DNA of 64,000 nucleotides from an uncultured Gammaproteobacteria bacterium. GTDB lineage: Bacteria; Patescibacteriota; Microgenomatia; Levybacterales; GWA1-39-11. The notes under the pieces were generated by a model. The model was not told the origin of the DNA and did no database searches. It saw only the letters and a list, made by a program, of their open reading frames with translations. Position numbers and translations under genes: made by a program. Of this stretch, positions 21,057-61,434 are shown one piece after another; positions within the stretch are counted from its first letter, which is position 1; every line of letters starts with the position of its first letter. Where the stretch lies: the NCBI GenBank assembly GCA_964511965.1, contig CAZEGF010000022.1, positions 12,101 through 76,100 on the forward strand. Reading direction: 5' to 3'.

Positions 21057-21106
21057 ATTTGAGATTGAAATTTTTTGGTAGTAACTCTACAATAATAATT
21101 GACACT

Positions 21107-29235: not shown

Positions 29236-29361
29236 CTTGATCGTGGACAAGCGGATTTCATCCGCAACTTAAAACTTAAAACTTAAAGCCTCAAAAAATT
29301 ATTTTTGTTTTGAAGTTTGTAGTTTTTTATTTGTAGTTGCTACCGCCTGCCCACGATCAAG
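29236..29361. repeat. Imperfect 19-bp inverted repeat (cttgatcgtggacaagcgg / ccgcctgcccacgatcaag) flanking an AT-rich word spacer at the left edge of GC island 1
   Basis: Arms at 29236-29254 and 29343-29361 are reverse complements with 2 mismatches. Confidence 0.7.
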
Positions 29362-29397
29362 ATTTCCATATTTGTCTTGTCTGGGAGGAGGTTCGTA

Positions 29398-29586
29398 TTG
29401 ACGAACAAGATATTAGAAAGAGTCGCAAGGCTCATTGGCAAACGCGCCCACGAAGTTGGGCATGCTGCCGTTGAGTTCGGACATATTACGGTCCACGACA
29501 TCGAACGCGCGGCTGCACGCCGCAAGCCCAGGGAAAAAGCTGACAAAGCTCATCCCGCCATCGTCAACGACAAGTCCGTCAATTAG
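29398..29586 (+). CDS. Small protein P1 (about 62 aa) with a HEVGH...E..GH motif, in the GC-rich island
   Basis: Strong SD GGAGGAGG 6 nt upstream of the TTG at 29398. The track ORF 29377..29586 is in the same frame. The multi-frame ORFs of GC-rich DNA make this uncertain. Confidence 0.35.
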   Translation: MTNKILERVARLIGKRAHEVGHAAVEFGHITVHDIERAAARRKPREKADKAHPAIVNDKSVN

Positions 29587-29618
29587 GCGGGCGCCAAGTC
29601 CTACCCAGGAGAGTATAC

Positions 29619-29861
29619 ATGTCTCACGCAAATAGGCGAGGAATCGCAGGATTCCCCCGCCGACCGAAGACCAAACCGGCAAGCTACGGTAACACGCGTA
29701 TGATGCCTATCGTCAGGACTCCTGGCGAATTGGCGGCGCTCATGACCGAGCTTCCGGAACACGAAGCCCTTAATCGGGCCTGTATTTCGATCGAGGCTGT
29801 TTACGGACTCGGTGAGCCCGTACTCTTTCGGCCTCTCGACAGCATGTACTACCACCGCTAA
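29619..29861 (+). CDS. Small protein P2 (80 aa), GC-rich island
   Basis: RBS ggagagtatacATG. Same strand and operon layout with ppsA. Confidence 0.35.
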   Translation: MSHANRRGIAGFPRRPKTKPASYGNTRMMPIVRTPGELAALMTELPEHEALNRACISIEAVYGLGEPVLFRPLDSMYYHR

Positions 29862-29882
29862 CAGCGGCGCGAAGAAAGAAAC

Positions 29883-30086
29883 ATGTCAGACCACCATCGA
29901 AGGACGAGGCGTCAGCACTACGCTGACGAATCAAACCGAGATTCGTGGGAATTTGCCAAAGCCTTTCGTCAAGCCCGTTATTTCATAAAGACGGGTCAAC
30001 TCGGGCGAGGTCAAGCTCTCATCCAACCATTCCGCGGCATACGCCGTGGTTCCATGGAACAAATCCAAAACGAGGAGAACACTTAG
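29883..30086 (+). CDS. Small basic protein P3 (67 aa), GC-rich island
   Basis: ORF ends 1 nt before the ppsA start. Its last codons provide the GAGGAG SD for ppsA. Confidence 0.35.
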   Translation: MSDHHRRTRRQHYADESNRDSWEFAKAFRQARYFIKTGQLGRGQALIQPFRGIRRGSMEQIQNEENT

Positions 30087-32405
30087 TTGGGCAAGACAGC
30101 AGTAATCGAAAGCGAACTTTCTCAGAAGACCATCTACTGGTTTTCGGAGGTAAGTCGCGATGACCTGGGAGTCGTCGGAGGGAAGGGCGCCAACCTTGGC
30201 GAACTGACCAAAGCCGGCATTCCGGTCCCACCAGGGTTCGTCGTTTCGGCGGACACATATTTTCGCTTCATCCAGATGAACAGCCTCGAGTCGCTCATCA
30301 AGAAGGAGCTTTTCGGCCTCGATGTCCACGACAGCAGGGTGCTCGATGAGCGCGCGGCCAACATTCGGCAGCGCTTCATGGATGCTCCCATGCCGCGGTC
30401 TATCGCATCGGAAATCATGGACGCGTACCGCGAACTGGGCGAAGGCCCTGTTGCGGTCCGGTCGTCGGCAACAGCCGAAGACCTGCCCGAAGCATCTTTT
30501 GCCGGTCAACAGTCGACGTACCTTAACGTCGTCGGCCCAGAGAACGTTGTTCTCGCCGTCCAGGCGTGCTGGGCATCCCTCTTTGAGGGACGCGCCATCT
30601 TCTACCGGGAAGAAGCAGGATACGACCACATGAAGGTCGGACTTGCCGTCCCGGTCCAACGGATGGTGCAAAGCGAGATCTCAGGCGTCATGTTCACGGT
30701 CGAACCCGTGACGAGCGACCCTAAGAAGATCACAATCGAGGCTGTTTACGGTCTCGGAGAAGGGATTGTTTCGGGTGAGATCAGCCCGGATCTGTACATG
30801 ATCGACAAGCAGTCTCTTCAAATCACTGATCAGACCGTCACTCCACAGCCCAAAATGATTGCAAGGGCGCCGGAGTCAGACGGAAGCCATGAGGGAGCTA
30901 ACTCGTGGCAAGACGTTCCCGAGCATCTGCAGGAAAAGCAAAAGCTCACGGACAATGAGATCCACGAACTTGCCGCTATCGGCAAGGCCGTGGAAGAATA
31001 CTACGGAAGTCATCAAGACATCGAATGGGCCTATGAGGGCGGTAAGTTCTACCTCACTCAAGCACGCCCGGTGACGACCATGACTGAAGAACAACACGCT
31101 GATGTAACGGAACACGAAGAGGAGATCGCACCGGTCATCCTCAAAGGTCAGCCGGCTAGCCCTGGAGTAGGGCACGGACCGGTCCGTATCATCACCGATC
31201 CGAAAGACATCGACCAGGTCATGCAAGGCGACGTTCTAGTTGCTGAGATGACTACTCCGGATTTCGTTCCGGCGATGAAACGAGCTTCGGCCATCATTAC
31301 CGAACGCGGTGGAAGGACCTGCCACGCGGCCATTGTGTCACGCGAGCTGGGGATTCCCTGCGTCGTCGGAGTCAAAGGTGCTACCCAAGAGCTAAAGCCA
31401 GACCAGCAGGTTTCGGTTGACGGCTCGCAAGGTCTCATCTACAACGGTGAGGCGAAAACACGCCTGGCATGGGATCAGAGGCGGAGAAAACAACTCCTCC
31501 GAAAGTCCACAATAAAGACCACTACCAGACTCTACGTCAACCTCGCCGAGCCTGAGCTAGCCGAAGTCGTTGCTATGCGCAACGTCGACGGCGTCGGTCT
31601 TTTGCGCGCCGAATTCATCGTCGCGCAAATCAACCAGCACCCGAAGAAATACGTCGAGGACGGACAGGGTGCTGAGTACACACGGCTTCTTGCGGAAGGT
31701 ATCCGTAAGTTCTGCGAAGCCTTCAAGGGTCGTCCAGTCGTTTACCGACTGACCGACTTCAAGACGAACGAGTACGCCAACCTTCGGGGAGGCGCCAAGT
31801 TCGAGGCTACCGAAGAAAACCCGATGATCGGATTCCGCGGGGCATCCCGTTATATCCAGGACACGGAAGTCTTCATGCTAGAAGTCGAGGCGATCAAGCA
31901 AGTCCGCGAGGAATTCAAGAACCTGTACGTCATGGTTCCCTTCGTCCGGACTGAAGCTGAGCTGAAAGGCGTCAAGAATCTCCTGGCCGAGCAAGGTTTG
32001 GTCAGGGGAGTGGACGACTTCAAGCTCTGGATGATGGTGGAAGTTCCCTCCAACGTTATCATCCTCGACCGCTTCATCGACGTTGGTATCGATGGGATCT
32101 CCATCGGCTCCAACGACTTGACCCAGCTGGTTCTGGGCATCGATCGCGACAGTGAGGCTCTCGCCGATACCTTCGACGAGCGCAACGAAGCTGTCATGGC
32201 CGCCATCGAAACTGCGGTCACAGTCGCACGGCGTCGTGGTATTACCGCGAGCATCTGCGGCCAGGCACCCTCCGTTTACCCGGAGGTTACCGAAAAGCTG
32301 GTGGAGTGGGGGATCACCTCCGTCTCCGTTAGTCCTGACATGATCGAGCAGACACGCGAGATCATCCACAACGCCGAGGTCAAGCTCGGCCGCGCTCCCC
32401 AGTAG
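30087..32405 (+). CDS. ppsA: Phosphoenolpyruvate synthase / pyruvate, water dikinase (PEP-utilising enzyme)
   Basis: N-terminal PPDK_N motif (GGKGANLGEL...GIPVPPGFVVSADTY), phosphohistidine domain (GGRTCHAAIVSRELGIPCVVG) and a C-terminal PEP-utilising TIM barrel. TTG start with GAGGAG SD. The region is clearly GC-rich. Confidence 0.85.
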   Translation: MGKTAVIESELSQKTIYWFSEVSRDDLGVVGGKGANLGELTKAGIPVPPGFVVSADTYFRFIQMNSLESLIKKELFGLDVHDSRVLDERAANIRQRFMDAPMPRSIASEIMDAYRELGEGPVAVRSSATAEDLPEASFAGQQSTYLNVVGPENVVLAVQACWASLFEGRAIFYREEAGYDHMKVGLAVPVQRMVQSEISGVMFTVEPVTSDPKKITIEAVYGLGEGIVSGEISPDLYMIDKQSLQITDQTVTPQPKMIARAPESDGSHEGANSWQDVPEHLQEKQKLTDNEIHELAAIGKAVEEYYGSHQDIEWAYEGGKFYLTQARPVTTMTEEQHADVTEHEEEIAPVILKGQPASPGVGHGPVRIITDPKDIDQVMQGDVLVAEMTTPDFVPAMKRASAIITERGGRTCHAAIVSRELGIPCVVGVKGATQELKPDQQVSVDGSQGLIYNGEAKTRLAWDQRRRKQLLRKSTIKTTTRLYVNLAEPELAEVVAMRNVDGVGLLRAEFIVAQINQHPKKYVEDGQGAEYTRLLAEGIRKFCEAFKGRPVVYRLTDFKTNEYANLRGGAKFEATEENPMIGFRGASRYIQDTEVFMLEVEAIKQVREEFKNLYVMVPFVRTEAELKGVKNLLAEQGLVRGVDDFKLWMMVEVPSNVIILDRFIDVGIDGISIGSNDLTQLVLGIDRDSEALADTFDERNEAVMAAIETAVTVARRRGITASICGQAPSVYPEVTEKLVEWGITSVSVSPDMIEQTREIIHNAEVKLGRAPQ

Positions 32406-32524
32406 GAGCCATAACGTGAGCGTATACACGTTTATACGAAGCCAGATTAGACCGACCGCGAGGTCGGAAATTCCGCCGGACTTATGTCCGGCACCCCCTC
32501 CGCGTATAGCGGGCAACCCAACCT

Positions 32525-32562
32525 GGGTTCCCATCGCTTGCGCGGAGGGAACCCTTTAAAAA
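32525..32562 (+). terminator. Hairpin gggttccc...gggaaccc followed by TTTAAAAAAA at the right edge of GC island 1
   Basis: Perfect 8-bp stem. The T-run is short, so this is a weak intrinsic terminator. Confidence 0.35.
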
Positions 32563-32823
32563 AATTCACCAATTCCTAATCACTAATTACTACTCCAAAG
32601 GAGCAAGCTTTGCTTATTCACTAGTCACTATTTTGCGGGTTGACTTCAGTTTTTTTTAAAGCCTACAATTAAATAAGAAGAAAGTAGCAAGAAGCAAGTA
32701 GAAAGGGAAAATATGTTCTCTTAATACTTTATTCTTTATTCTTTATTCTCCCAAAATGTATTAGCTTTTGGACCGACTGGGACTAAAGCCAAGGAATGCA
32801 ACATTTAAAATATATAACGAAGC

Positions 32824-46159: not shown

Positions 46160-46260
46160 CAAAGCAAGAAAAGCTTGGCTACGCTAAGCAAAGCCTGTGG
46201 GTTTTGAGAAAGCGATTCTTGTAAAGGCCGATAATATTCAGACATGGAGGAAATAATATC
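46160..46260 (-). pseudogene. Duplicated 5' fragment of the methyltransferase gene (MSEYYRPLQESLSQNPQAL...) fused to an aagcttggctacgctaagc repeat
   Basis: About 30 bp (cttgtaaaggccgataatattcagacatg) are identical to 45091-45119. The encoded N-terminus matches the first 19 aa of the MTase, then diverges into the dispersed repeat. Confidence 0.55.
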
Positions 46261-46293
46261 ACTCCACAACTCTGAAGGTAACCCGATTGAACT

Positions 46294-46896
46294 TTGACAA
46301 CATTGGTTCTCACAAGCATACAACTTCTTCCCTATAATTTAGAAACCCCCTGTTATATAATGACCCTCATGAAGTTATTCAACTTTAGTTTCAGAGATTT
46401 GGGATTGTCTTTTCTATCTTTCATTATAGTTCTCCTAATTTGGATGATGAGTTTCCTTCACGTTGGAAGATCAAATCTCTTCGTTTACAACGAAAAATTT
46501 GACTACATTCGAATATTGCTGTTTTCTATTTTTTACCAGATAGTAGCTATATTTTTTGTAACTTTTTTTGTATCAAAGTTTCTAAAGATCTGGATAATTT
46601 ATATATTTTCAATTTTACTTACAATCCTTATCATTTATTATCAACTTCCACACCAGATTACACTTTTGACAACACCTCTTCCAAATGGAAATTATGATTA
46701 TGTCGTTTATAATATGCAAACTTTTGCGGAACTCTCTGTACGACCCTGCGTAACTACTATGGTAAAACAGAAAGGTTCACCGGATTATTTCAATCTCGGA
46801 AATAAAAAGATTATTAAAGAAATTCGTAGAGTAAATTCAATATGTATCGATTATTCTAGAAAACCGAATTTTCAAAATTTCGAATACCCACTCTGA
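46294..46896 (+). CDS. Hypothetical polytopic membrane protein
   Basis: 200 aa with 4-5 TM helices. Confidence 0.45.
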   Translation: MTTLVLTSIQLLPYNLETPCYIMTLMKLFNFSFRDLGLSFLSFIIVLLIWMMSFLHVGRSNLFVYNEKFDYIRILLFSIFYQIVAIFFVTFFVSKFLKIWIIYIFSILLTILIIYYQLPHQITLLTTPLPNGNYDYVVYNMQTFAELSVRPCVTTMVKQKGSPDYFNLGNKKIIKEIRRVNSICIDYSRKPNFQNFEYPL

Positions 46897-46909
46897 TATA
46901 ATTACACTC

Positions 46910-48010
46910 ATGAATGTTTCAGTAGGAATTGTTGGGTTGCCAAATGTTGGGAAGTCAACGTTATTTAATGCATTGTTGAAAAAACAGGCTGCGCTTGCTG
47001 CAAATTATCCTTTTGCAACAATAGAACCAAATGTCGGAATTGTACCAGTGCCCGACGATCGTCTCACCCGTTTGGCAGAAATTACCAAAGAAGAAGTAGG
47101 GATGAGTGATCTTCCCCCAATAAAACCAGCTATGGTTGAATTTGTTGATATAGCAGGACTTGTAAAAGGTGCTTCAGAAGGGGAGGGACTTGGGAATAAA
47201 TTTCTTTCACACATTCGAGAAGTAAAGGTAATTGCGCATGTTGTCAGAGCTTTTGAGGATAAAGATGTTATACGCGAGGGTTCAGTTGGCGTTAAAGAGG
47301 ATTATGAAACTATAACAACGGAGTTGATACTTGCAGATCTTGATACACTTTCTAAAATTAATGAGAAAACCTTAAGAACTGATACTGTTCTAAATTCTGC
47401 AATTACAAAATTAAAATCTCATTTAGATACCGGTCTTCCTGCCCGAAGCTCTTTGCTTACTGATGGAGAGCAGGAAACAATAAAACAGTTATCGCTTTTA
47501 ACTTCAAAGCCGGAAGTTATGGTTCTAAATGTTGGTGAAGAATCTTATTCAGAAAGCAAATTTGAATCAATAATTGGTCAATACAGTCAACTATTGGGTA
47601 TGGATAAGAAAGATATGGTCGTTGTGTCGGCAAAAATCGAATCAGAACTTGCTGAACTTGGGGAAGAGGATGCGACGCAATATTTAAAAGAATTAGGAGT
47701 TGAAAAGTCTGGGCTTGAAAGACTCATCCAGAAGGCTTACGAGAAATTGGGACTAATATCATTTCTTACCTGTGGAGAAAAAGAAGTAAGAGCATGGACA
47801 GTTAAAATTGGAGCAACTGCAGTTGAGGCAGCAGGAGAAATCCACACAGATTTTATGGATAAATTTATCAAGGCAGAGGTTGTAAGTTACAATGATTTTG
47901 TAGAATGTAATGGTTGGAAAGGGGCCCGGGAAAAGGGCAAAGCCGGACTTCAGGGGAGAGAATACGTCATGCAAGACGGAGACACAGTAGAATTTAAGAT
48001 TGGCCGTTGA
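46910..48010 (+). CDS. ychF: Ribosome-binding ATPase YchF (Obg-family)
   Basis: [32 protein letters not shown] and a C-terminal TGS domain. Confidence 0.95.
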
Positions 48011-48068
48011 TATTAATTAAATTGTAACCAATCCTTGATTTCTGCGAAATTAAGATAGGAAGATAAAT

Positions 48069-48506
48069 ATGGCTGAAGATAAAAGTGATGCTCAAAGAGA
48101 AGCGGAAGAGATGGAGGCAATGTTTAACAGCATTAATAAACTAATTGGAGAAAACCTCACACTTCCAGTAACTTTAAGCCTCGAGGATGCAGAAAGATTA
48201 AGACGGTTTGTTGAGAAAGGATATGTCAATGATGTCGGTGGGACAAGCGTTGAAAGACAACGACTTTGGGAAACAGCGCTTGTTATACATGAAAGAATAT
48301 TAATGGAACAAATGGAACATGAGAACAAATCAGAGGATAGCATAACAATTCCATTGTTCGAAACCCAAATTGCTGAGCTTGAGTCATTAACTCACAGTGG
48401 ATTAAATTTTGGAATGATGCTTGATGAGCGATTAGATGTTATTGAAGCAATTAGTCATACACGCGAAGCATATGTTAAGAGTAGATCCGAAATTCAAGGT
48501 CAATAA
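48069..48506 (+). CDS. Hypothetical acidic protein
   Basis: 145-aa ORF. Confidence 0.45.
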   Translation: MAEDKSDAQREAEEMEAMFNSINKLIGENLTLPVTLSLEDAERLRRFVEKGYVNDVGGTSVERQRLWETALVIHERILMEQMEHENKSEDSITIPLFETQIAELESLTHSGLNFGMMLDERLDVIEAISHTREAYVKSRSEIQGQ

Positions 48507-48546
48507 ATTCCTGGACACGATGTTTAAATTGTTTTAATATAGTTCT

Positions 48547-48879
48547 ATGAATGACTGTATATTCTGCGAAATTGTTAAAGGAGAAATTCCAAAAGACTTT
48601 AGATTTAAGGATGAGAATGTCCTGGCGTTTGATGATATTCATCCGGTTGCCAAAGTCCACGTTCTTTTCATAAGCCGAGAGCATTACAATGCATTCGAAG
48701 ATCTTCATGATGATGATGTTATGTCATCAATGAGAAAAGGAATTCAAAAATTAGTTGAAGAGACAAATCTTGTTGGAAAAGGTTACAAAGTTCTTGTTAA
48801 CGGCGGAGGAGGACAGGTCATAAATCATCTTCATTTTCACCTCATTGGCCCAACTGGGCTGCAAGCACCCATAAAGTAA
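48547..48879 (+). CDS. HIT-family (histidine triad) nucleotide hydrolase
   Basis: CIFCEI...HLHFHLIG histidine triad. Confidence 0.85.
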   Translation: MNDCIFCEIVKGEIPKDFRFKDENVLAFDDIHPVAKVHVLFISREHYNAFEDLHDDDVMSSMRKGIQKLVEETNLVGKGYKVLVNGGGGQVINHLHFHLIGPTGLQAPIK

Positions 48880-48940
48880 CTTTAAACGTTAAACTTAAAA
48901 CCTCAAACTGAAATTTTGTTGTGGGAAATTATATAGAAGG

Positions 48941-49930
48941 GACCCTGCTGTTTCCGCAGCAGGGTCCCAGAGAAGCGGGAGCCCGGAGGCTCCTGGTCAA
49001 TCACAGTCCGCCGTAATTCGCGCGTGCTTATCGCAGCGATGGCAGACCAGAGATGATCCTCATCATTTGCATGTCCCCATAGCGGGGAAGGTGGGCTCTA
49101 GCCCCACCTTCCCCTAGGGAAGGAACGCATAACGGTCAAGGAGAACCAAAAAACCGTCAGCGGAATCCTTTTGGGTGGGACGGGCCGACATGGGGAGGTA
49201 TGTCTACCCGTCCCGTGGAATGAGGGAGGAGTCCACATTCCGTGAAACCGCTTGGTCAGGGCGGCTTCCTCGATCAGCGGCTTATATGCCGCGGGAAAAC
49301 CGGGAAGGGCTGGACAACGAAGTCCAGCCCAATTCCGGCCGGAGACAGAAGAGGTCGAGTTTTCTGCTCCTAAGATCTTGTTCCCGAACCTGCGGGCGGG
49401 CGGATTCGCAGAGAAACAAGATCCTCTCGACCAGCGGCTTATATGCCGCGGGAAAACCGGGAAGGGCTGGACAACGAAGTCCAGCCCAATTCCGGCCGGG
49501 GATAAATCCCCTAGGGTTATCTGGTGGAGACCTAGGTGGGTAAACGGGGTGAAATGGGTTTGTCTCCTGGCCAGCGTTACCCTTCTTTATCCAGTTTCCG
49601 TACATAGGTCGGATCAGGACGGGGGTAATGCCCCCGTCCATCACCGTTATCAAGAGCTAAGGTTTTTGCGTTACCGCCTATTGGCGGCTTCGATAATGGC
49701 GGTCAGACCCTTGCGGTGTCTGCCAAATTCTTGGGCTAAAAAGCCCTGGATATAACCACAGGCGGTCCCTTGTTGGGACCATAGCTATAAGCCAGTATCA
49801 CCATGTCAAACCTCTCCAGTTTGAATTTGCTACACCCGACTAGCGGGTGGAACATGCAAATGTATGTAAAAGAGCGCCCGCAATGCGGGCAATGCCCTTT
49901 ACGGTAGAGTGAATTATAGGTCAACAGTAG
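48941..49930 (+). ncRNA. Candidate large structured non-coding RNA or RNA-like element (GC-rich, hairpin-dense, contains a 69-bp tandem-like repeat). Strand assignment tentative.
   Basis: Many perfect hairpins: gggaccctgctg/cagcagggtccc, gggaaggtgggc/gccccaccttcccc, ggacggggg/cccccgtcc, gggctggac/gtccagccc x2. No convincing ORF with an RBS. The frame-overlapping track ORFs here are GC artefacts. Confidence 0.35.
49264..49500. repeat. Two near-identical 69-bp direct repeats (cagcggcttatatgccgcgggaaaaccgggaagggctggacaacgaagtccagcccaattccggccgg) about 95 bp apart
   Basis: Copies at about 49264-49332 and 49432-49500. Each folds into two hairpins (gcggc/gccgc and gggctggac/gtccagccc). Confidence 0.9.
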
Positions 49931-49959
49931 CCCGTTTTCAATATTGTTTTAATGTGATA

Positions 49960-50145
49960 GTTTTTTTTGAAAAGCTTTTGAGGTATGAGCCCTGTCGTGC
50001 TCTATCACAACAAACATGTTTATATTTAGATGAAGTTGAGATATAAGCAAAGCTTGGCTACGCTAAGCAAAGCTTGGCTACGCTAAGCAAAGCTTGTACC
50101 TCAAAATCTATTAGTTTTTTTTGAAAAGCTTTTGAGGTATAATTA
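49960..50145. repeat. Palindrome-rich repeat block: ttttttttgaaaagcttttgaggtat x2 flanking tandem aagcaaagcttggctacgctaagc x2
   Basis: Seen directly. A third aagcttggctacgctaagcaaagc copy sits at 46165-46200. Confidence 0.85.
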
Positions 50146-50193
50146 CCCTATCTTGTAGTAAATTACAGGAAATTTAGGAGGTGTTTTTAAAAT

Positions 50194-50379
50194 ATGGTTT
50201 TTGTAAAAAAACAACCAGGGGATAGCCCTGATGCCATGATAAGAAAATTTTCTCGCAAAGTAATGAGCGAAGGTATTATTACTGAGATGAAAAAAAGAGA
50301 ATTTCATCTCAAGCCTTCATTGGCTAAAAAATTCAAAAAAGCTCTGAAGCAGAAAATGGCAAAACACAATCAGTATTAA
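50194..50379 (+). CDS. rpsU: 30S ribosomal protein S21
   Basis: MVFVKKQPGDSPDAMIRKFSRKVMSEGIITEMKKREFHLKPS is canonical S21. RBS aggagg upstream. Confidence 0.9.
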   Translation: MVFVKKQPGDSPDAMIRKFSRKVMSEGIITEMKKREFHLKPSLAKKFKKALKQKMAKHNQY

Positions 50380-50955: not shown

Positions 50956-52437
50956 ATGGTATATTACAGAAAATACAGACCCCAAACAATTTCCGATCTT
51001 GATCTTTTTTACGTTCGAGAAAAGCTTTCAGCAATTCTTTCATCAAAAGAAATCCCTCACGCATTTTTATTTACCGGTAGTAAGGGTCTTGGAAAAACTT
51101 CATCTGCTCGAATTTTGGCAAAGGCAATCAACTGCACAGAAAGAGTATCTAGCAACTTGCAACTAGCATCTAGCAAGAAGCAAGAAGCAAGAAGCCAGGA
51201 GCCTATTTCCATTGAACCTTGTAATAAATGTGATGTGTGTGTCTCAATAACCAATGGGTCAAATATTGATGTCCTTGAAATCGATGCTGCCTCGAATGGG
51301 GGAGTAGAGGAAATGCGTACTCTCAGGGAGAGAGTTAAATTTGCATCTTCAACCCTCAAGAAAAAAGTGTACATAATCGATGAGGTGCATATGTTATCCA
51401 CCGGTGCATTTAATGCACTTTTAAAAACACTGGAGGAGCCACCTTCTCATGTAGTATTTGTTCTGGCAACAACGGAGCTGCATAAATTGCCTGCAACGGT
51501 TGTTTCTCGTACCTTTCAAGTTCAATTTGAAAAGCCCTCACAGGATGAATTAATTCATTCATTGAAAAGAATAGTTACAGGTGAAAAATTGAAAGTTAAT
51601 GACGAAGTTTTGACAGAAATATATAAAGTTGCCGAAGGAAGTTTTCGGGATGGTGCAAAAATTTTGGAAGAATTGGCGCTTTCTTCCGGTGGCAAACATA
51701 TAACGATAGACCTATTTGAAAAAACTTTTCATACGAAAGGATTGAATGATGAGGTGGTAGCTCTTCTTGAAGCATACGCCTCAAAAAACGCAAAAGAGGG
51801 GCTTCAGACAATAAATGCATTATATGAATCAGGCGCCGACTTTAAGATAGTTATCGAAAAATTAGTTGATCATTTACGGGGGTTACTGATGCTACGAAAT
51901 GGAATAACAAGCGATGTGCAAGATATTAAGGATTTGAATATTGATAATATTCGATCGCTTTTAGAGCTTGCCAATGAAGCTTATGGAGAACTAAAAATAT
52001 CAGTGATACCACAATTACCGTTAGAGCTTATGACTGTCAAGTATTGCATTATAGATAGGGGACAGAAGTCAGAAGACAGCAGGCAGGAGACAGTAAACAG
52101 TAGTCAGAAGTCAGAAGGAAAAAACCAAACGGTTGTCATTGAGAGGAGTGAAACGACGAGGCGCCACCATGAAATGGCAAGTACTCTTAGGGTGCAATCT
52201 GATAATACAACTCTACTTAAATCCCTCATTGATGAACTAAATATTGTTAACAAACCAGGCGCTGCATTATTGAGGTCGGCAAAGGAGGCTGTTTTGGATA
52301 AAGAGACAATGGTTATTTATACTCCTTTTCCCATTCACGCAGAGCGGTTGAAATCTGAAAAAGTATACCCCGATCTTCTTAAATCCGCAGGAGTAGTCGC
52401 GGGTCGCAAGGTTGATCTTGCCATAAAAATTTCCTAA
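50956..52437 (+). CDS. dnaX: DNA polymerase III subunit gamma/tau
   Basis: GLGKTSSARILAKAINC Walker A, zinc module CNKCDVC, DEVHMLS box. A 24-aa insertion (VSSNLQLASSKKQEARSQEPISIE) and a later SQKSEG block are encoded by hexamer repeats. Confidence 0.9.
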   Translation: MVYYRKYRPQTISDLDLFYVREKLSAILSSKEIPHAFLFTGSKGLGKTSSARILAKAINCTERVSSNLQLASSKKQEARSQEPISIEPCNKCDVCVSITNGSNIDVLEIDAASNGGVEEMRTLRERVKFASSTLKKKVYIIDEVHMLSTGAFNALLKTLEEPPSHVVFVLATTELHKLPATVVSRTFQVQFEKPSQDELIHSLKRIVTGEKLKVNDEVLTEIYKVAEGSFRDGAKILEELALSSGGKHITIDLFEKTFHTKGLNDEVVALLEAYASKNAKEGLQTINALYESGADFKIVIEKLVDHLRGLLMLRNGITSDVQDIKDLNIDNIRSLLELANEAYGELKISVIPQLPLELMTVKYCIIDRGQKSEDSRQETVNSSQKSEGKNQTVVIERSETTRRHHEMASTLRVQSDNTTLLKSLIDELNIVNKPGAALLRSAKEAVLDKETMVIYTPFPIHAERLKSEKVYPDLLKSAGVVAGRKVDLAIKIS

Positions 52438-52448
52438 AAAACAAAAAA

Positions 52449-52473
52449 GGCCACCTCCTGGGTGGAGGTGGCC
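52449..52473. terminator. Bidirectional hairpin ggccacctcc-tggg-tggaggtggcc, flanked by an A-run upstream and a T-run on the minus strand
   Basis: Perfect 10-bp stem. On the minus strand it is followed by TTTTTTGTTTTTT, so it is a strong terminator for the minus-strand small-ORF unit and probably also for dnaX. Confidence 0.7.
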
Positions 52474-52515
52474 TGATTTGCACAGTGAACTCTGGGAGTT
52501 GGAAGGCCCTGCCTT

Positions 52516-52809
52516 TTATGAAGTGCCCGACTGGGCGTTTCGCAGATCGTGTTCGTACTGGATTGCGTTGAACATGCACTTGCAGTACATGCCGTCCATG
52601 TAGCCACTGCCGAGGCAGAGACAATTCTGGCTGGGTCTGTCATGCAGCGTTCCGGTGTAGACACCACGAAGCTCGGTTTCTGTCTTGTTGGCCGGCCGAG
52701 CCTCAGGGGTGCGGATCCTACGCTCCGCCGACAGCCTGAGATCCCATACCGAAGGTTGTGGTGCTTGTAGAACCGGAGCCTTACCATTGCTGGTAGGTGT
52801 TCTTGCCAT
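52516..52809 (-). CDS. Small Cys-rich protein (97 aa; ...SQNCLCLGSGYMDGMYCKC...) in GC island 3
   Basis: RBS gaaagggtgag-N7-ATG. Shares a [DE]x2-4NC[LW][CL] motif with ORFs at 53712 and 53946. Frame choice in GC-rich DNA is uncertain. Confidence 0.35.
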   Translation of the reverse strand: MARTPTSNGKAPVLQAPQPSVWDLRLSAERRIRTPEARPANKTETELRGVYTGTLHDRPSQNCLCLGSGYMDGMYCKCMFNAIQYEHDLRNAQSGTS

Positions 52810-53002
52810 CTTGTTGGCTCACCCTTTCTGTTCCGTAAGGAACTGTTGCTTCAGAGGATCCGAAGCAATTGCTATCCTTTTGCAGGATCGGCCCCGTCTC
52901 TCGACGGGGCTTCTCCCCGGCATTTCCCTTGCCTGACTTGACTGCGCTCGGTGGTAGTTACCTCCTTTTCGTCATTTTTAACGCCCTTGGGGACGATGAC
53001 GT

Positions 53003-53149
53003 CTAGTGGATCTGAGTTACCAGAATGGCTATTGCAACTGCGAATGCAGAGCATACCATCAAGGCAGAGTAGGCTGTTTGTTTCCGATATGCTGCCTGGC
53101 GGGCAGCCTTGGAGTGAGGCGGCGGGGGTGGCCCCTTTTTCCTGAACAA
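53003..53149 (-). CDS. Possible 48-aa proline-rich small membrane peptide (MFRKKGPPPPPHSK...AFAVAIAILVTQIH)
   Basis: Strong SD AAGGAGAGG 8 nt upstream of the TTG. C-terminal TM helix. Preceded on the minus strand by an AT-rich promoter-like tract. Confidence 0.3.
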   Translation of the reverse strand: MFRKKGPPPPPHSKAARQAAYRKQTAYSALMVCSAFAVAIAILVTQIH

Positions 53150-53359
53150 GACTGTACCTCTCCTTGTGTCGTATTCGACAACCAACATGCAATTCTCAAA
53201 TAAATTGTAAATTGGTTGTCGACTACGACTTCTCCCAAAATTTCAAAGTGCAAATAAATACATTTAGCACAATTTCTTTACAAGCAAAAAAAGTAAAGAA
53301 TTATCCTATTTGTGGCTAGATTATAGCATATAGTAGTTTTAAATGAGGATATGGCAAAA

Positions 53360-53380
53360 GGCCGTCCGTGGAGGACGGCC
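53360..53380 (-). terminator. Intrinsic terminator (ggccgtcc-gtggag-gacggcc + TTTTG on minus strand) ending the A-B-C small-ORF operon
   Basis: Perfect 7-bp GC stem followed by a U-tract on the minus strand, about 20 nt after the stop of ORF 53400..53684. Confidence 0.55.
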
Positions 53381-53399
53381 CAAAATTGCACGGTGATAT

Positions 53400-53684
53400 T
53401 TATGGATGTTCATTCTTCTCGATGTAAAGTTGGACAAGCCTTATCCACTCTGGCTTGATGGTCGGCCAATTTTGCCGCACATACGGGTGCGGAAAGTTGT
53501 TGTAGAGCCAAGCCTCGAGCGTGCCAGTCGAGAAAGTGCGCTTCGGTCCACCTGGTGGCTTGCGAAACCTCCGTTCGAGAGGTAAACCATTTGGATAGGA
53601 AATTGCCACCGACCAGTAGTCTTGGTTGACGGTTGGAGAACGCATCTCCAGAGAAAGTCCAGCCGTGAGATGTAGACTGATCAT
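53400..53684 (-). CDS. Small protein C (94 aa), GC island 3
   Basis: GGAG 9 nt upstream of the ATG. The alternative overlapping frame (53410..53697) lacks an RBS. Confidence 0.3.
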   Translation of the reverse strand: MISLHLTAGLSLEMRSPTVNQDYWSVAISYPNGLPLERRFRKPPGGPKRTFSTGTLEAWLYNNFPHPYVRQNWPTIKPEWIRLVQLYIEKNEHP

Positions 53685-53711
53685 TATCCATCTCCATAGG
53701 GAAACTTGGTG

Positions 53712-53930
53712 CTAGCGCGTTGGGATGTGAAGTGATTTCCTGATCTCATCTTGCGTCATATAGACACACAGGCAGTTCATGGGTTCGCCTTCGTCGGTGG
53801 TGTCGGGCTTGACGCCGCGATCGCACTTGAGAACGCAGTCGGGGCTGAACGGGTACTTGTGAGGCCCGCGGCCCGCTTGTAGCAGTTGTTCCCGAGCTTC
53901 GGAATAGTGAGAATCCTCATTGTATTCCAT
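53712..53930 (-). CDS. Small Cys-rich protein B (72 aa; CVLKCD...NCLCVY)
   Basis: RBS GGAAGAG 8 nt upstream of the ATG, and tight spacing after ORF A. Confidence 0.4.
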   Translation of the reverse strand: MEYNEDSHYSEAREQLLQAGRGPHKYPFSPDCVLKCDRGVKPDTTDEGEPMNCLCVYMTQDEIRKSLHIPTR

Positions 53931-53945
53931 CAGATGTGCTCCTTC

Positions 53946-54191
53946 CTAACAGTCATGGTACCCATACAGATCGTAAGAAACGATGGGTCGTGGTTTTGGA
54001 ATGATTTCAAGCAGCCAGCAATTTTCATGTTGAGCCGCTTGGTTGAATTCGTCTTCGCACGAAGGAACGTGCCCTTGCTCAAAGTACGAATTGTGTTCTG
54101 GATCAAGGCAGAGCCTCGATTTGACGTGTTGACCGCAGAGTGTGCAGTCTCGAGGTGCGCCGTTGACTTTTACGCCTATGAGTTGAGTCAT
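53946..54191 (-). CDS. Small Cys-rich protein A (81 aa; CTLCGQH...C...C...NCWL)
   Basis: Strong SD tcAGGAGGgaaaATG. First gene of the minus-strand trio. Confidence 0.45.
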   Translation of the reverse strand: MTQLIGVKVNGAPRDCTLCGQHVKSRLCLDPEHNSYFEQGHVPSCEDEFNQAAQHENCWLLEIIPKPRPIVSYDLYGYHDC

Positions 54192-54393
54192 TTTCCCTCC
54201 TGACTACCGCTTCAGGCAAAGAATTGCCCAAGGCGGTAGCCAAAAAGGAATCCATAAATTTCAAAGTGCTGAAAATCATGATGAGAACGCCATAGTAGAG
54301 CGCATCTACTAATTAATTCTCAAATTTAGAACGATTATACATCGAAACAGATTGTAAAACGATAATTTGTAGCCTATAATTCATTTTTGCACT

Positions 54394-60849: not shown

Positions 60850-61434
60850 TTAGCGCTTTATAAACCCAAATATTATTGCCCAGAAGAGCCCCCAGACGAT
60901 TATAAAAACCAGTCCTAGGACTATTAATACAGGTAATGAAATTTTTGATTTCTTCTTTGCACCTGCTGCGGGCGTAGCTGTACCGGGTACAGTCGGGGAG
61001 GCTGGCGGTTGGTGAGCTGTACCACTAAATGCAAAAGTATTTCCTTCACTGATTGGTCTTGCGGGAGCACTACTTAAAGCTTGTTCAGCAGTACTATCCA
61101 TTGTTGGCATCCCATTCATTGGTGGCATGGCTCCGCCCAGAGGGTTGGGCGCAGCGGGTTGTGCTGGTGCAGTAGGCATTTCTAATGGGGGCGGCATAGT
61201 TCCACCCAGAGGATTTGGAGCGGCGGGTTCAGCTGGCATTACTGGAGGTGTTGTTCCAAGCGGTGGCGGCATTGAAGGAGTACCAAGGGGGCTTTGTCCT
61301 GCAGGAGGCGTAGCCGATGTTGCAAGAGGCGGAGTAGTGCCAGGAGTAGCTGCTGCTTTACTACCTGAAGTATTCATAACTCTATCGTAAATTTCCTTCA
61401 GTTCCGGGGTAAGGTTGGTCTTTTTTGTATCCAT
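60850..61434 (-). CDS. Pro-rich membrane-anchored protein with APNPLGG(A/T)MPP repeats and a C-terminal TM
   Basis: 194-aa ORF with low-complexity Pro/Ala/Gly repeats and C-terminal ISLPVLIVLGLVFIIVWGLFWAIIFGFIKR. Confidence 0.5.
   Translation of the reverse strand: MDTKKTNLTPELKEIYDRVMNTSGSKAAATPGTTPPLATSATPPAGQSPLGTPSMPPPLGTTPPVMPAEPAAPNPLGGTMPPPLEMPTAPAQPAAPNPLGGAMPPMNGMPTMDSTAEQALSSAPARPISEGNTFAFSGTAHQPPASPTVPGTATPAAGAKKKSKISLPVLIVLGLVFIIVWGLFWAIIFGFIKR

What the first reader, a model, noticed from the sequence alone, without database searches (positions are those of the whole stretch)
48941..49930. About 1-kb GC-rich, hairpin-dense non-coding island with a 69-bp duplicated module between the HIT gene and rpsU: candidate novel large structured RNA
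This stretch is the opposite of the surrounding low-GC genome: clearly GC-rich and almost entirely resolvable into perfect 8-12-bp hairpins.
- Hairpins include gggaccctgctg|cagcagggtccc, gggaaggtgggc|gccccaccttccc, gggacgggcc..ccgtcccg, ggacggggg|cccccgtcc and gcccgca|gcgggc.
- It contains two near-identical 69-bp modules (about 49264-49332 and 49432-49500). Each folds into a 5-bp hairpin (gcggc-ttatat-gccgc) plus a 9-bp hairpin gggctggac-AACGAA-gtccagccc nested in a ccgg...ccgg stem.
- The ORFs predicted here overlap in three frames and lack RBSs, as expected for GC-rich RNA-like DNA.
- The element sits in a housekeeping neighbourhood (ychF, hit | rpsU, ybeY, dnaX) and is bracketed by palindromic repeats (finding at 46160-50145).
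- I see weak, inconsistent echoes of RNase P RNA (GGAGGAGUCC..., GGGUGAAAUGGG) but cannot place it in any known family: RNase P, tmRNA, SRP, 6S, group I/II intron, mini-ykkC.
- A large structured RNA of unknown class (GOLLD/ROOL/OLE-like scale) in a CPR-type genome would be notable.
Basis: seen in the sequence. Interest (0 to 1): 0.78.

Follow-up and report, generated by a model that had tools for sequence, protein, structure and literature searches.

The report
Novel 1-kb structured RNA gene
The GC-rich kilobase between the HIT and S21 genes of this uncultured Levybacteria-type (CPR) bacterium is a separately transcribed, heavily folded RNA gene on the minus strand; it matches no catalogued RNA family, carries a tiny reading frame with a ribosome-stalling-type motif, and its function is unknown.

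Summary
Window 48921-49906 is about 55% G+C in a 39% G+C genome and folds far better than shuffled sequence (z = -18.9 on the minus strand, -10.2 on the plus strand). It contains a 74-nt module twice.

It is not an assembly artefact, because at least 10 independent assemblies carry it. No Rfam 15 family matches it or its homologues.

The gene lies on the minus strand. A near-consensus sigma-70 promoter (TTGAAA-17-TATAAT, 49941-49913) and a hairpin terminator (48968-48939) are found at the same places in every homologue.

Homologues at about 70-77% identity sit at the same HIT-rpsU position in related Levybacteria MAGs. They keep the helices through compensatory changes: 33 pairs change on both sides, against 15.5±2.6 in shuffles.

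About 100 nt into the RNA there is a conserved Shine-Dalgarno sequence plus AUG. It opens an 8-22-codon frame ending in (N/D)(K/R)GPP, an RGPP-like arrest motif. In short-form homologues the frame is only AUG-UAG. The Shine-Dalgarno sequence pairs with a CU-rich stretch about 690 nt downstream.

Function remains inferred.

The parts
49913..49941 (-). Sigma-70-type promoter of the RNA gene: -35 TTGAAA (49941-49936), 17-nt spacer, -10 TATAAT (49918-49913). The inferred transcription start is about 49905-49910.
   Evidence: It is the best promoter match in 48.4-50.4 kb, at 11/12. Promoters scoring 10-12 of 12 lie at the same relative place in every homologue (L029, L032, L012, L011, L027, L016, L017) and in the other RNA genes at this locus.
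48921..49906 (-). Whole RNA gene, about 985 nt (ends inferred, not mapped).
   Evidence: Fold z-score is -18.9. Structure is kept across homologues. No Rfam family matches. There is one copy per locus.
49866..49902 (-). 5' stem-loop P1 (GUAAAGGGC...GCUCUUUUAC enclosing GCCCGC-AUU-GCGGGC).
   Evidence: These are helices 1-2, with changes on both sides. L032 has a completely different sequence here but keeps the pairing.
49848..49861 (-). 5' strand of the long-range closing helix (CAUUUGCAUGUUCC). It pairs with 49064-49077.
   Evidence: Found as inverted repeat I7. It is helix 3: 14 pairs, 98.8% paired, 12 of them invariant in all six sequences.
49064..49077 (-). 3' strand of the closing helix (GGGACAUGCAAAUG).
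49833..49849 (-). Hairpin P2 (CACCCG-CUAGU-CGGGUG).
   Evidence: Helix 4. It is also conserved in L016 and L017, as shown in the R1 alignments.
49811..49817 (-). Shine-Dalgarno-like GGAGAGG, 6 nt upstream of the AUG.
   Evidence: An SD-N5-7-AUG is present at +99 to +116 in all seven family members examined.
49736..49804 (-). Mini-ORF of 22 codons plus stop: MVILAYSYGPNKGPPVVISRAF*. The K-G-P-P codons are at 49771-49760.
   Evidence: The in-frame (N/D)(K/R)GPP motif is kept in L012, L032, L016 and L017. In the G-P-P codons only third positions vary (0, 0, 3).
49118..49124 (-). CU-rich stretch (UCCUUCC) that pairs with the Shine-Dalgarno sequence about 690 nt upstream in the RNA.
   Evidence: Helix 5: 7 pairs, 88% paired, 3 pairs changed on both sides and 3 on one side. 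Also predicted.
49701..49724 (-). Invariant hairpin GGCAGAC-A-CC-GCAA-GG-GUCUGACC. Its loop is a GNRA tetraloop (GCAA here, GUAA in most relatives).
   Evidence: Helix 8: 9 pairs, never vary. Alignment.
49673..49688 (-). Hairpin GCCGCC-AAUA-GGCGGU.
   Evidence: Helix 9.
49611..49645 (-). Invariant hairpin GGUGAU-GGACGGGGG-CAUUA-CCCCCGUCC-UGAUCC. It has a symmetric UGAU/UGAU internal loop, read from the sequence as possible tandem G.A pairs.
   Evidence: Helix 10: 14 pairs, 11 never vary. The tandem G.A reading is my inference from the sequence.
49426..49499 (-). Module copy nearer the RNA 5' end: CCGG stem, 9-bp hairpin GGGCUGGAC-UUCGUU-GUCCAGCCC, and 5-bp hairpin GCGGC-AUAUAA-GCCGC.
   Evidence: This copy is absent in L008/L010, and carries a different tip in L029.
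49343..49425 (-). Long hairpin between the two module copies.
   Evidence: pairs 513-567 with compensatory changes in L012.
49269..49342 (-). Module copy nearer the RNA 3' end. This is the copy shared with all long-form and short-form relatives.
   Evidence: Helices 13-15. Helix 15, GCGGC/GCCGC, becomes GCUGC/GCAGC in three sequences.
49177..49214 (-). Hairpin GGGACGGGnnGAC...GUCGGCCCGUCCC.
   Evidence: I8. Helix 18: 13 pairs, 94.9% paired, 2 pairs changed on both sides.
49084..49114 (-). 12-bp hairpin GGGGAAGGUGGG-GCUAGAG-CCCACCUUCCCC.
   Evidence: I10. Helix 20: 3 pairs changed on both sides.
48971..49063 (-). Highly conserved 3' domain (GGUCUGCCAUCGC...GCGCGA...GGCGGAC.GUGAUUGACCAGG, then the GAGCC-UCCG-GGCUC hairpin, then CCGCUUC).
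   Evidence: Helices 21-25. nhmmer d3 hits.
48926..48968 (-). Intrinsic-terminator-like hairpin (48968-48939; 12 bp, 9 G-C pairs) with a U-rich tail UUCUAUAUAAUUU.
   Evidence: In relatives the hairpin sequence is entirely different but its position and pairing are kept.

Best explanation
**Shown.**
- Window 49906->48921 (minus strand) is an independent gene for a highly structured RNA of about 985 nt. It belongs to a family not represented in Rfam.
- It has its own sigma-70 promoter and hairpin terminator. It sits between HIT and rpsU in a subclade of Levybacteria (CPR/Patescibacteria).
- Its fold is a large domain closed by an invariant 14-bp long-range helix, followed by a conserved 3' domain.
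- Peripheral modules are gained, lost, duplicated and swapped between strains.

**Probable.** About 100 nt from the 5' end, a ribosome can load on a conserved Shine-Dalgarno-AUG. It would translate a mini-ORF of 8-22 codons whose conserved part is (N/D)(K/R)GPP, a relative of the RGPP/RAPP translation-arrest core. In short-form relatives the mini-ORF is only AUG-UAG.

**Inferred mechanism.**
1. The Shine-Dalgarno sequence pairs with a CU-rich segment transcribed about 690 nt later. Ribosome loading is therefore possible mainly during transcription, or in an 'open' conformer.
2. A ribosome slowed or parked on GPP (or on the start-stop codon pair) holds the 5' domain open and shields the 5' end.
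3. This couples the folding and/or stability of the RNA to the cell's translation status.
4. The closed, mature RNA then most likely acts as a stable trans-acting RNA or ribonucleoprotein scaffold.
5. It is an accessory, lineage-specific factor rather than a housekeeping RNA.
For: **Gene and strand.**
- Promoter scores 11/12 and the terminator is found by an independent scan.
- The same promoter and terminator architecture is present in all homologues.
- Fold z is -18.9 on the minus strand against -10.2 on the plus strand.
- Alifold energy is -175 on the minus strand against -162 on the plus strand.

**Structure.**
- On six sequences and 184 pairs, 91.3% of cells are paired, against 39-52% when partners are slid.
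- 33 pairs change on both sides, against 15.5±2.6 in shuffles (0/500) and 4-10 when slid.
- In a 97-98%-identical strain the AT-rich spacer next to the gene is unalignable while the RNA is about 99-100% identical. The one changed hairpin changed compensatorily: GGGCUGGAC/GUCCAGCCC became GGGUUGGAC/GUCCAACCC.

**Not a known family.**

**Family.**
- L012, L011, L027, L032 and L029 are found by BLAST/nhmmer.
- L016 is found by covariance model at E = 3.7e-7.

**Mini-ORF.**
- SD-N5-7-AUG lies at +99 to +116 in all seven members.
- (N/D)(K/R)GPP is in frame in three independent lineages. Only third positions vary in the G-P-P codons. A stop follows 2-7 codons after PP.
- RGPP is reported as the strongest RAPP-like arrest core and as enriched near the C-termini of small proteins (PMC12992588).

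**Shine-Dalgarno sequestration.** Helix 5 shows covariation, and a comparable pairing is predicted in L016/L017.

**Accessory nature.** The RNA is absent from this locus in L013-L015, L037, L040, L041, L042, L052 and L062.
Against: - No transcript data: strand, ends and abundance are inferred from sequence signals only.
- The family has only about 7 distinct sequences from one narrow clade. Covariation counts are therefore not a formal phylogeny-aware test (no R-scape).
- G.U against A.C counts in strand-neutral helices favour the minus strand only weakly (28 vs 18).
- Structures predicted from the window sequence alone do not separate the strands.
- Most members have KGPP, not RGPP. I found no statement that Lys can replace Arg in the arrest core.
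- The GPP codons also lie in hairpins, so RNA-level constraint could explain part of the pattern.
- There is no downstream co-directional gene, which every characterised RAPP-type arrest peptide has.
- The trans-acting/scaffold role has no direct evidence at all.
Confidence: 0.6

Rival explanations
1. It is essentially an mRNA. The product that matters is the small (K/R)GPP peptide. The roughly 800 structured nucleotides after it are a stabilising 3' UTR or a reservoir for processed small RNAs.
For: The Shine-Dalgarno-AUG and the in-frame motif are conserved. Dual-function RNAs such as RNAIII exist (my own knowledge).
Against: - The peptide outside the five-residue motif is not conserved, and its length varies from 8 to 22 residues.
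- Two family members reduce the ORF to AUG-UAG and yet keep the rest of the RNA.
- The most strongly conserved and invariant parts are helices and the 3' domain, far from the ORF.
Confidence: 0.15
2. It is a cis-acting antisense or attenuator unit. Ribosome stalling on the mini-ORF controls whether transcription stops at the 48939-48968 hairpin or reads through into the antisense strand of HIT/ychF, so regulating those genes.
For: - The RNA gene is convergent with HIT, with only about 45 nt between them.
- The terminator tail is only moderately U-rich.
- A short motif, UUUCCCAC, is conserved just beyond the hairpin in several species.
Against: - The ORF and the terminator are about 770 nt apart, with a conserved, covarying structure between them that an attenuator would not need.
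- In loci with two RNA genes in tandem, the rpsU-proximal gene is followed by another RNA gene, not by HIT.
- Relatives without the RNA keep HIT/ychF.
Confidence: 0.08
3. It is foreign, GC-rich DNA acquired horizontally (a decayed gene or mobile-element remnant) with no function of its own, like other GC-rich insertions in this window.
For: - The window has other GC-rich islands that look acquired: 29.3-32.6 kb with a 772-aa PEP-utilising enzyme gene, and 52.4-54.3 kb with small minus-strand ORFs.
- The HIT-rpsU gap is variable between species.
Against: - Compensatory changes keep the helices.
- The RNA diverges at about the rate of neighbouring coding DNA (71-77% against 72-84% versus L012), while the true spacer is unalignable.
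- Promoter and terminator are conserved.
- There is no protein-family signal in any frame, and no similarity to phages, plasmids or viral contigs.
Confidence: 0.04
4. It is a divergent member of a known large RNA or ribozyme family (RNase P, tmRNA, group I/II intron, GOLLD, ROOL, OLE, HEARO) with insertions that defeat the models.
For:
- CPR RNAs are often divergent, and introns have hidden genes from standard tools in Patescibacteria (PMC13011429, abstract seen).
Against: - cmscan with permissive filters at E<=10 over 1.5 kb gave only noise. The best hits were miRNA/sRNA models outside the RNA, and beta_tmRNA scored 8.8 bits.
- Six homologous loci gave nothing either.
- ARAGORN found nothing.
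- The RNase P-like strings are on the non-transcribed strand and in the wrong order.
- There are no flanking exon halves.
Confidence: 0.04
5. The structure acts at the DNA level (recombination sites, origin, attC-like hairpins) rather than as RNA.
For: - Helices are nearly strand-symmetric.
- Single-sequence structure projections perform similarly on both strands.
- Alleles are swapped within the gene: L032 has a replaced 5' half, and module copy number varies.
Against: - A conserved promoter and terminator bracket exactly the conserved block.
- Fold z-score and consensus energy favour one strand.
- Long-range helices span about 700-770 nt.
- No recombinase, transposase or replication gene lies nearby.
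Confidence: 0.03

Closest known systems
Orphan large structured bacterial ncRNAs (OLE, GOLLD, ROOL, raiA), found as long GC-rich intergenic regions in AT-rich genomes
   Same: Hundreds of nucleotides long. GC-rich island in a low-GC genome. Many covarying helices. Own transcription signals. Patchy, lineage-restricted distribution. Function not obvious from context.
   Different: - No covariance-model similarity to any of them.
- Not next to tRNAs or prophage genes.
- Contains a ribosome-binding mini-ORF.
- Size varies from about 680 to 985 nt through module gain and loss.
RAPP/RGPP/RAGP translation-arrest peptides (SecM, ApdA, ApdP, ApcA and RGPP-containing small ORFs; PMC12992588, PMC10951233, PMC7897499)
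   Same: Small ORF with a Shine-Dalgarno sequence. The core R/K-G-P-P lies 2-7 codons before the stop. One member (L016) has exactly RGPP. RGPP needs little N-terminal context according to PMC12992588.
   Different: - No co-directional downstream gene to regulate.
- Most members have Lys instead of Arg.
- The ORF is much shorter than the small proteins analysed in PMC12992588 (a size shoulder at about 100-200 residues), and some members have only AUG-UAG.
- The ORF is embedded in a large conserved RNA fold.
Dual-function RNAs such as Staphylococcus aureus RNAIII (structured regulatory RNA that also encodes a small peptide) - from my own knowledge
   Same: Independently transcribed, multi-hairpin RNA with a short translated frame in its 5' part.
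   Different: - No sequence or model similarity.
- Twice the size.
- No C-rich target-binding loops noticed.
- No targets known.
Ribosome-dependent 5' stabilisers (ermC leader stalling, STAB-SD elements in Bacillus) - from my own knowledge
   Same: A Shine-Dalgarno sequence or short ORF near the 5' end that keeps a ribosome in place would protect downstream RNA from 5'-end-dependent decay. AUG-UAG in short forms fits 'parking' rather than peptide production.
   Different: Known examples stabilise mRNAs that encode proteins. Here the protected body would be non-coding. Nothing has been tested.
tmRNA
   Same: A structured RNA containing a short internal reading frame that is read by ribosomes.
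   Different: - No tRNA-like domain.
- Has a Shine-Dalgarno sequence and AUG.
- Not detected by ARAGORN or by the tmRNA models.

Membership tests
Any Rfam 15 family (RNase P a/b, tmRNA, SRP, 6S, group I/II introns, GOLLD, ROOL, OLE, HEARO, raiA, mini-ykkC and others) | Covariance-model match at or near the family's gathering score | tested here: not met
   - Whole window at gathering threshold: only a SAM riboswitch at 21106-21231.
- 48700-50200 at E<=10: nothing credible inside the RNA.
- Six homologous loci at E<=0.5: nothing.
tmRNA / tRNA-like RNAs | tRNA-like domain and tag reading frame recognised by ARAGORN | tested here: not met
   0 genes found in the window.
   - On the transcribed (minus) strand the loop is UUCGUU.
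- It becomes GAAA or GAUA in near-identical strains.
- There is no model hit and no downstream gene.
Large structured non-coding RNA gene (generic kind) | Secondary structure conserved through compensatory substitutions in homologues | tested here: met
   33 of 184 pairs change on both sides, against 15.5±2.6 in shuffles and 4-10 when slid. 91.3% of cells are paired.
Large structured non-coding RNA gene (generic kind) | Own promoter and terminator, and no conserved long ORF | tested here: met
   for the signals. for no Pfam signal. Indels are not in multiples of three and regions are deleted in short forms.
Large structured non-coding RNA gene (generic kind) | Transcript of the predicted size and strand exists | not testable with these tools
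   No transcriptome data are available here.
RAPP-like translation-arrest peptides | Small ORF with a translation start signal | tested here: met
   SD-N5-7-AUG in all seven members.
RAPP-like translation-arrest peptides | R-(A/G)-P-P (or RAGP/RAPG) core close to the C-terminus | tested here: inconclusive
   L016 has RGPP. The window, L012, L032 and L017 have KGPP. Two members have no peptide at all. Whether Lys is tolerated was not found in the paper text read.
RAPP-like translation-arrest peptides | Co-directional downstream gene whose expression the arrest controls | tested here: not met
   Downstream on the minus strand there is only structured RNA, a terminator and the convergent HIT gene.
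RAPP-like translation-arrest peptides | Ribosome stalling demonstrated | not testable with these tools
   Needs toeprinting, PURE-system translation or ribosome profiling.
Mobile element / prophage / plasmid DNA | Similarity to known mobile DNA, or flanking recombinase and repeats | tested here: not met
   - No BLAST match in the phage or plasmid collections.
- Viral-contig pattern scans were empty or gave one chance hit in a 69% G+C contig.
- No recombinase gene lies nearby.

The most novel reading that the evidence does not exclude
This is the founding member of a new class of translation-coupled large RNAs in CPR bacteria. It would be a 0.7-1 kb structured RNA that deliberately recruits and parks a ribosome on a built-in RGPP/KGPP (or start-stop) mini-ORF. 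In this reading the stalled ribosome is part of the RNA's working state, acting as a folding checkpoint, a tether to ribosomes or a sensor of translation capacity. The hypervariable module hairpins would set specificity in a strain-level conflict or partner-recognition role.
Probability: 0.2. Interest if true: 0.85.

Novelty: new variant of a known kind. Interest (0 to 1): 0.68.

Why it matters
Large structured bacterial RNAs of unknown function are rare. Those studied so far (RNase P, group II introns, OLE, ROOL, GOLLD) have tended to reveal unusual biochemistry or architecture.

I found no report of such an RNA from CPR/Patescibacteria in the paper searches I ran, even though these organisms make up a large share of bacterial diversity and have minimal genomes in which a 1-kb non-coding gene is costly.

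This family adds an unusual combination:
- a conserved, covarying kilobase-scale fold;
- an embedded ribosome-binding mini-ORF with an arrest-type (K/R)GPP motif but no gene to regulate;
- a Shine-Dalgarno sequence masked by a helix spanning about 690 nt;
- strain-level swapping of modules and of half the gene.

If confirmed, it would offer a compact natural system for studying how translation can be used to control the folding or stability of a non-coding RNA. It would also be a new target for structural work.

Its narrow distribution (a subclade of Levybacteria, absent from sister species) limits its generality.

Tried and rejected
- **Rfam.** Searched at gathering threshold and at permissive E-values, on the window and on homologues. 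Nothing found.
- **ARAGORN.** Nothing found.
- **Internal similarity.** BLAST of the island against the rest of the window found no other copy and no relation to the other GC-rich islands. Two of those islands are Pro/Ala-rich protein genes, one is a PEP-utilising enzyme gene, and one (52.4-54.3 kb) is a cassette of small minus-strand ORFs.
- **Phage and plasmid collections.** No match.
- **Metagenome pattern scan.** A pattern built from the conserved 5' region gave a single hit, L025. It has no further similarity and is taken as chance.
- **Viral-contig scans.**
  - Two were empty.
  - A third hit L061, a 69% G+C contig. It is taken as chance because no domain HMM matches it.
- **Strand test from the window's own MFE structure.** It did not discriminate the strands. 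Strand-neutral G.U against A.C counts favour the minus strand only weakly. The strand call therefore rests on promoter, terminator and z-scores.
- **Covariance model R1 (5' domain).**
  - It recovered L016 and part of L017.
  - It did not recover the other GC-rich RNA genes at this locus (L036A/B, L039A/B, L027b, L038), which also show no BLAST similarity to each other.
  - I therefore do not count them as family members, although L036A shares the 5' motif, a closing helix and the 3' tail by eye.
- **Pfam on all island ORFs.** Nothing found.
- **Extra look-ups through rpsU and HIT homologues.** P0080, P0048, P0090, P0016 and P0018 gave loci without the RNA.
- **Literature searches for a described CPR/Levybacteria large RNA.** Nothing relevant found.
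- **Group I/II intron, RNase P and tmRNA by eye.** Rejected for lack of core motifs, wrong strand or order, and no exons.
Full report
**1. Observation**

The stretch 48.9-49.9 kb is 51-60% G+C in 200-nt windows, while the 64-kb window averages 39%.

The 986 nt from 48921 to 49906 fold to -461.3 kcal/mol on the minus strand. Dinucleotide shuffles average -344.8±6.2, giving z = -18.9. The plus strand gives z = -10.2.

The duplicated module is real, but its register is 49269-49342 and 49426-49499: 74 nt, one mismatch, 157-nt period. The 83 nt between the copies form a long hairpin.

**2. Not an artefact, and whose genome it is**

The HIT protein next to the island is encoded on at least 24 public contigs. 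Ten were fetched. Three long ENA contigs reproduce the whole HIT-island-rpsU arrangement at 99.95-100% identity. Several shorter JGI, ENA and Logan contigs end inside the island. Breaks there are expected from a 74-nt repeat and from strain variants.

HIT and S21 relatives carry Levybacteria/Levyibacteriota labels, so this is a CPR (Microgenomates-group) genome.

**3. Known families**

- Rfam 15 at gathering thresholds finds only a SAM riboswitch elsewhere in the window.
- A permissive scan of 48700-50200 at E<=10 gives only noise.
- A permissive scan of six homologous loci gives nothing.
- ARAGORN finds no tRNA or tmRNA.
- The island has no similarity to phage or plasmid records or to viral contigs.
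- It has no Pfam signal in any ORF.

**4. Strand and gene boundaries**

The best sigma-70 match in 48.4-50.4 kb is on the minus strand: TTGAAA-17 nt-TATAAT, 49941-49913, 11/12. The strongest terminator-like site is also on the minus strand: a 12-bp hairpin at 48968-48939 followed by UUCUAUAUAAUUU.

In every related locus a promoter scoring 10-12 of 12 lies at the rpsU-proximal edge of the GC-rich block. A strong hairpin of unrelated sequence lies at the HIT-proximal edge.

Consensus folding energy also favours the minus strand: -175 against -162, and -170.7 against -154.7. Five of six individual MFEs agree.

Strand-neutral helices show 28 G.U against 18 A.C when read as minus, which is only weak support. 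A structure predicted from the window alone does not separate the strands. I therefore rest the strand call on the conserved transcription signals and the z-scores.

The RNA is convergent with HIT and divergent from rpsU.

**5. Homologues and structure**

GTDB genomes and public assemblies gave the following loci.

| Group | Loci | Features |
|---|---|---|
| Near-identical strains | L029, L010/L008 | - |
| Mosaic | L032 | 5' half replaced (see section 7) |
| Long forms | L012 | about 71-77% identity |
| Short forms | L011, L027a | about 780 nt; lack about 200 nt, including one module |
| Divergent subtype | L016, L017 | about 680-780 nt |

A covariance model of the 5' 112 nt, built without L016 or L017, finds L016 at E = 3.7e-7 and part of L017. 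It finds no second copy in the window. nhmmer profiles of four sub-domains also find one copy per locus.

On the six-sequence alignment A9 I tested an RNAalifold consensus of 184 pairs in 27 helices.

| Measure | Observed | Shuffled | 3' partners slid 1-3 columns |
|---|---|---|---|
| Cells paired | 91.3% | 87.9±0.4% (0/500 as high) | 39-52% |
| Pairs changed on both sides | 33 | 15.5±2.6 (0/500 as high) | 4-10 |

Because the structure was derived from these sequences, the comparison with slid partners is flattered. The size of the gap, and the many hairpins with entirely different sequence but kept pairing, make conserved structure the only reasonable reading. Examples of such hairpins are the terminator, P1 in L032 and the module stems.

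Notable elements:
- An invariant 14-bp long-range helix (49848-49861 with 49064-49077) closes a domain of about 770 nt.
- There is an invariant GNRA hairpin (49701-49724).
- There is an invariant hairpin with a symmetric UGAU/UGAU internal loop (49611-49645).
- There is a very conserved 3' domain (48971-49063).

**6. Rate of change**

Against L012, the RNA is 71-77% identical. Neighbouring genes are 72-84% identical, and rpsU is 91%.

Against the 97-98%-identical strain L010, the AT-rich spacer between HIT and the RNA cannot be aligned at all. The RNA is 98.9-100% identical outside the module.

**7. Modules and alleles**

| Strain | Module copies | Hairpin tip(s) |
|---|---|---|
| Window | two | UUCGUU on both |
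| L029 | two | GAUA on the upstream copy (UUCGUU on the other) |
| L010/L008 | one | GAAA, with a compensatory C-G to U-A change in the stem |
| L012 | two, diverged | - |
| L011/L027a | one | - |

L032 comes from a genome about 98-99% identical in rpsU, ybeY and dnaX, and 98.9% identical in the RNA's 3' half. Its RNA 5' half is only 55-76% identical. So part of the gene has been replaced by a divergent allele. The gene is therefore both constrained and recombining.

**8. A mini-ORF**

At +99 to +116 of every family member there is a Shine-Dalgarno sequence 5-7 nt before an AUG.

| Locus | Mini-ORF product |
|---|---|
| Window | MVILAYSYGPNKGPPVVISRAF |
| L012 | MVIQAYSHGPNKGPPRL |
| L032 | MNKGPPRS |
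| L016 | MKDTTGLFGDRGPPGSAS |
| L017 | MSLTGLSGNKGPPGSAS |
| L011, L027a | AUG-UAG only |

- The (N/D)(K/R)GPP motif is in frame in three independent lineages.
- In the G-P-P codons only third positions vary: 0, 0 and 3 variable sites by codon position.
- Window against L012 shows 5 of 7 differences at third positions.
- These bases also sit in hairpins, and some synonymous changes are at the same time compensatory. RNA-level and coding constraints therefore cannot be fully separated.

According to PMC12992588, RGPP is the RAPP-like core that gave the most robust translation arrest in the contexts tested. The paper also reports that it needs little N-terminal context, is the most avoided tetrapeptide in many bacterial phyla, and is enriched near the C-termini of small proteins. 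L016 has exactly RGPP. The others have KGPP, for which I found no data.

Unlike all characterised arrest peptides, there is no downstream co-directional gene.

The Shine-Dalgarno sequence (49817-49811) is predicted to pair with UCCUUCC at 49124-49118. Three of the seven pairs change on both sides (helix 5). A comparable pairing is predicted for L016/L017.

**9. Locus context**

- In other Levybacteria the HIT-rpsU gap is either about 85-220 nt (L013-L015, L041, L052) or holds a 378-453-aa protein family with a weak, sub-threshold TAT-signal match (L039, L040, L042, L062). These proteins are 28-35% identical to each other.
- L037 has an unrelated 252-aa minus-strand ORF there.
- Some loci carry two GC-rich RNA genes in tandem, each with its own promoter and terminator (L027, L036, L039). 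L038 has a mini-gene of about 250 nt.
- Those extra RNAs show no detectable similarity to the family or to one another.

The RNA is thus an accessory feature of a variable locus, not a housekeeping RNA.

**10. Mechanism (inference)**

I propose the following sequence:
1. During transcription the Shine-Dalgarno sequence is free for about 690 nt of synthesis.
2. A ribosome loads and is slowed on K/R-G-P-P, or simply sits on AUG-UAG.
3. While it is there it prevents the SD/anti-SD helix and the local hairpin from forming, and it covers the 5' region.
4. After release the closing helices form and the compact RNA persists.

This would tie the folding or half-life of the RNA to translation capacity. 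What the mature RNA does is unknown. Its conserved invariant loops, its strong promoter and terminator, and its accessory, recombining nature fit a stable trans-acting RNA or RNP scaffold, possibly with a strain-specific partner. None of this has been tested.

**11. Rivals**

I considered five rivals and rate them low, for the reasons given in their entries:
- an mRNA for the peptide with a long 3' UTR;
- an antisense or attenuator unit acting on HIT;
- inert foreign DNA;
- a disguised known ribozyme;
- a DNA-level structure.

**12. Verdict**

What is new relative to that reading is:
- the strand and the gene boundaries;
- the family and its covariation;
- the variable modules and allele replacement;
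- the conserved ribosome-binding mini-ORF with an arrest-type motif.

It is a new RNA family. I rate it as a new variant of a known kind (large structured or dual-function bacterial RNA), with a modest chance of being something categorically new.

Noticed in passing
window 52363-54263: A second GC-rich island (about 50-60% G+C) lies between dnaX and a polyprenyl synthase gene. Unlike the RNA island it holds small minus-strand ORFs with good ribosome-binding sites, for example 54191-53946 (81 aa, Cys-rich), 53930-53712 (72 aa) and 52809-52516 (97 aa). It also has hairpin terminators at about 52445-52480 and 53358-53385. Other Levybacteria have ybaB directly after dnaX, so this looks like an inserted foreign cassette. 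No Rfam hit.
   Followed up: partly
window 29331-32627: A 3.3-kb block at 56% G+C contains a 772-aa ORF (30087-32405, +) that looks like a PEP-utilising enzyme or PEP synthase, plus about 590 nt of GC-rich upstream sequence. It is probably horizontally acquired.
   Followed up: no
window 49951-50140: The rpsU upstream region has two 36-nt direct repeats (49951-49986, 50105-50140; the inner 22 nt are identical). They flank 2.7 copies of a perfect 20-nt tandem repeat (50044-50096, TAAGCAAAGCTTGGCTACGC). Related species (L014, L015) carry several copies of a repeat of about 55 nt (GAGNTATGAGC.CT..CGTGCTCTATC...) at the same place.
   Followed up: partly
L027 1298-1989 (minus strand); L036 3880-4494 and 4545-5092; L039 3940-4415 and 4510-5020; L038 3920-4154: Further GC-rich, hairpin-dense transcription units, each with a near-consensus promoter and a terminator, lie in tandem at the HIT-rpsU locus of other Levybacteria. 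They have no detectable similarity to the window RNA or to each other. Several have a Shine-Dalgarno-AUG mini-ORF about 90-235 nt from the start.
   Followed up: partly
L032 1-805 versus window 49100-49906: In a genome about 98-99% identical in rpsU, ybeY and dnaX, and 98.9% identical in the 3' half of the RNA, the 5' half of the RNA gene is only 55-76% identical. This includes P1, P2 and the mini-ORF, which here encodes MNKGPPRS. It indicates allelic replacement by recombination inside the RNA gene.
   Followed up: partly
window 48878-48913; L039 3830-3945; L010 1887-1930: The short spacer between the HIT stop codon and the RNA's 3' end is made of species-specific short tandem repeats: a 14-nt unit x2.6 in the window, (CCATTAG)n of about 15 copies in L039, and TAGTGAT/TAGTAAT-like units in L010. 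A short motif, UUUCCCAC(A), just beyond the terminator hairpin is conserved in several species.
   Followed up: no
L040 3898-5259; L039 5205-6446; L042 1228-2364; L062 1229-2497: A family of 378-453-aa proteins without a significant Pfam domain occupies the HIT-rpsU gap in many Levybacteria that lack the RNA. One member has a weak, sub-threshold TAT-signal match, and the proteins are 28-35% identical to each other. In L039 the protein gene co-exists with two RNA genes.
   Followed up: partly
window 21106-21231: A SAM-I riboswitch (RF00162, 46.3 bits) on the plus strand is the only Rfam match at gathering threshold in the window.
   Followed up: no
window 11805-13415 and 60850-61434: Two moderately GC-rich stretches are minus-strand genes for Pro/Ala/Thr-rich low-complexity proteins (536 aa and 194 aa, the latter with a C-terminal hydrophobic segment). 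They are not RNA islands.
   Followed up: no
L029 versus window, HIT gene (window 48547-48879): Between these two strains HIT is only 92.8% identical at the DNA level. The adjacent RNA is 99.7-100% identical and rpsU, ybeY and dnaX are 98-99% identical, a mosaic that suggests recent recombination around this locus.
   Followed up: no
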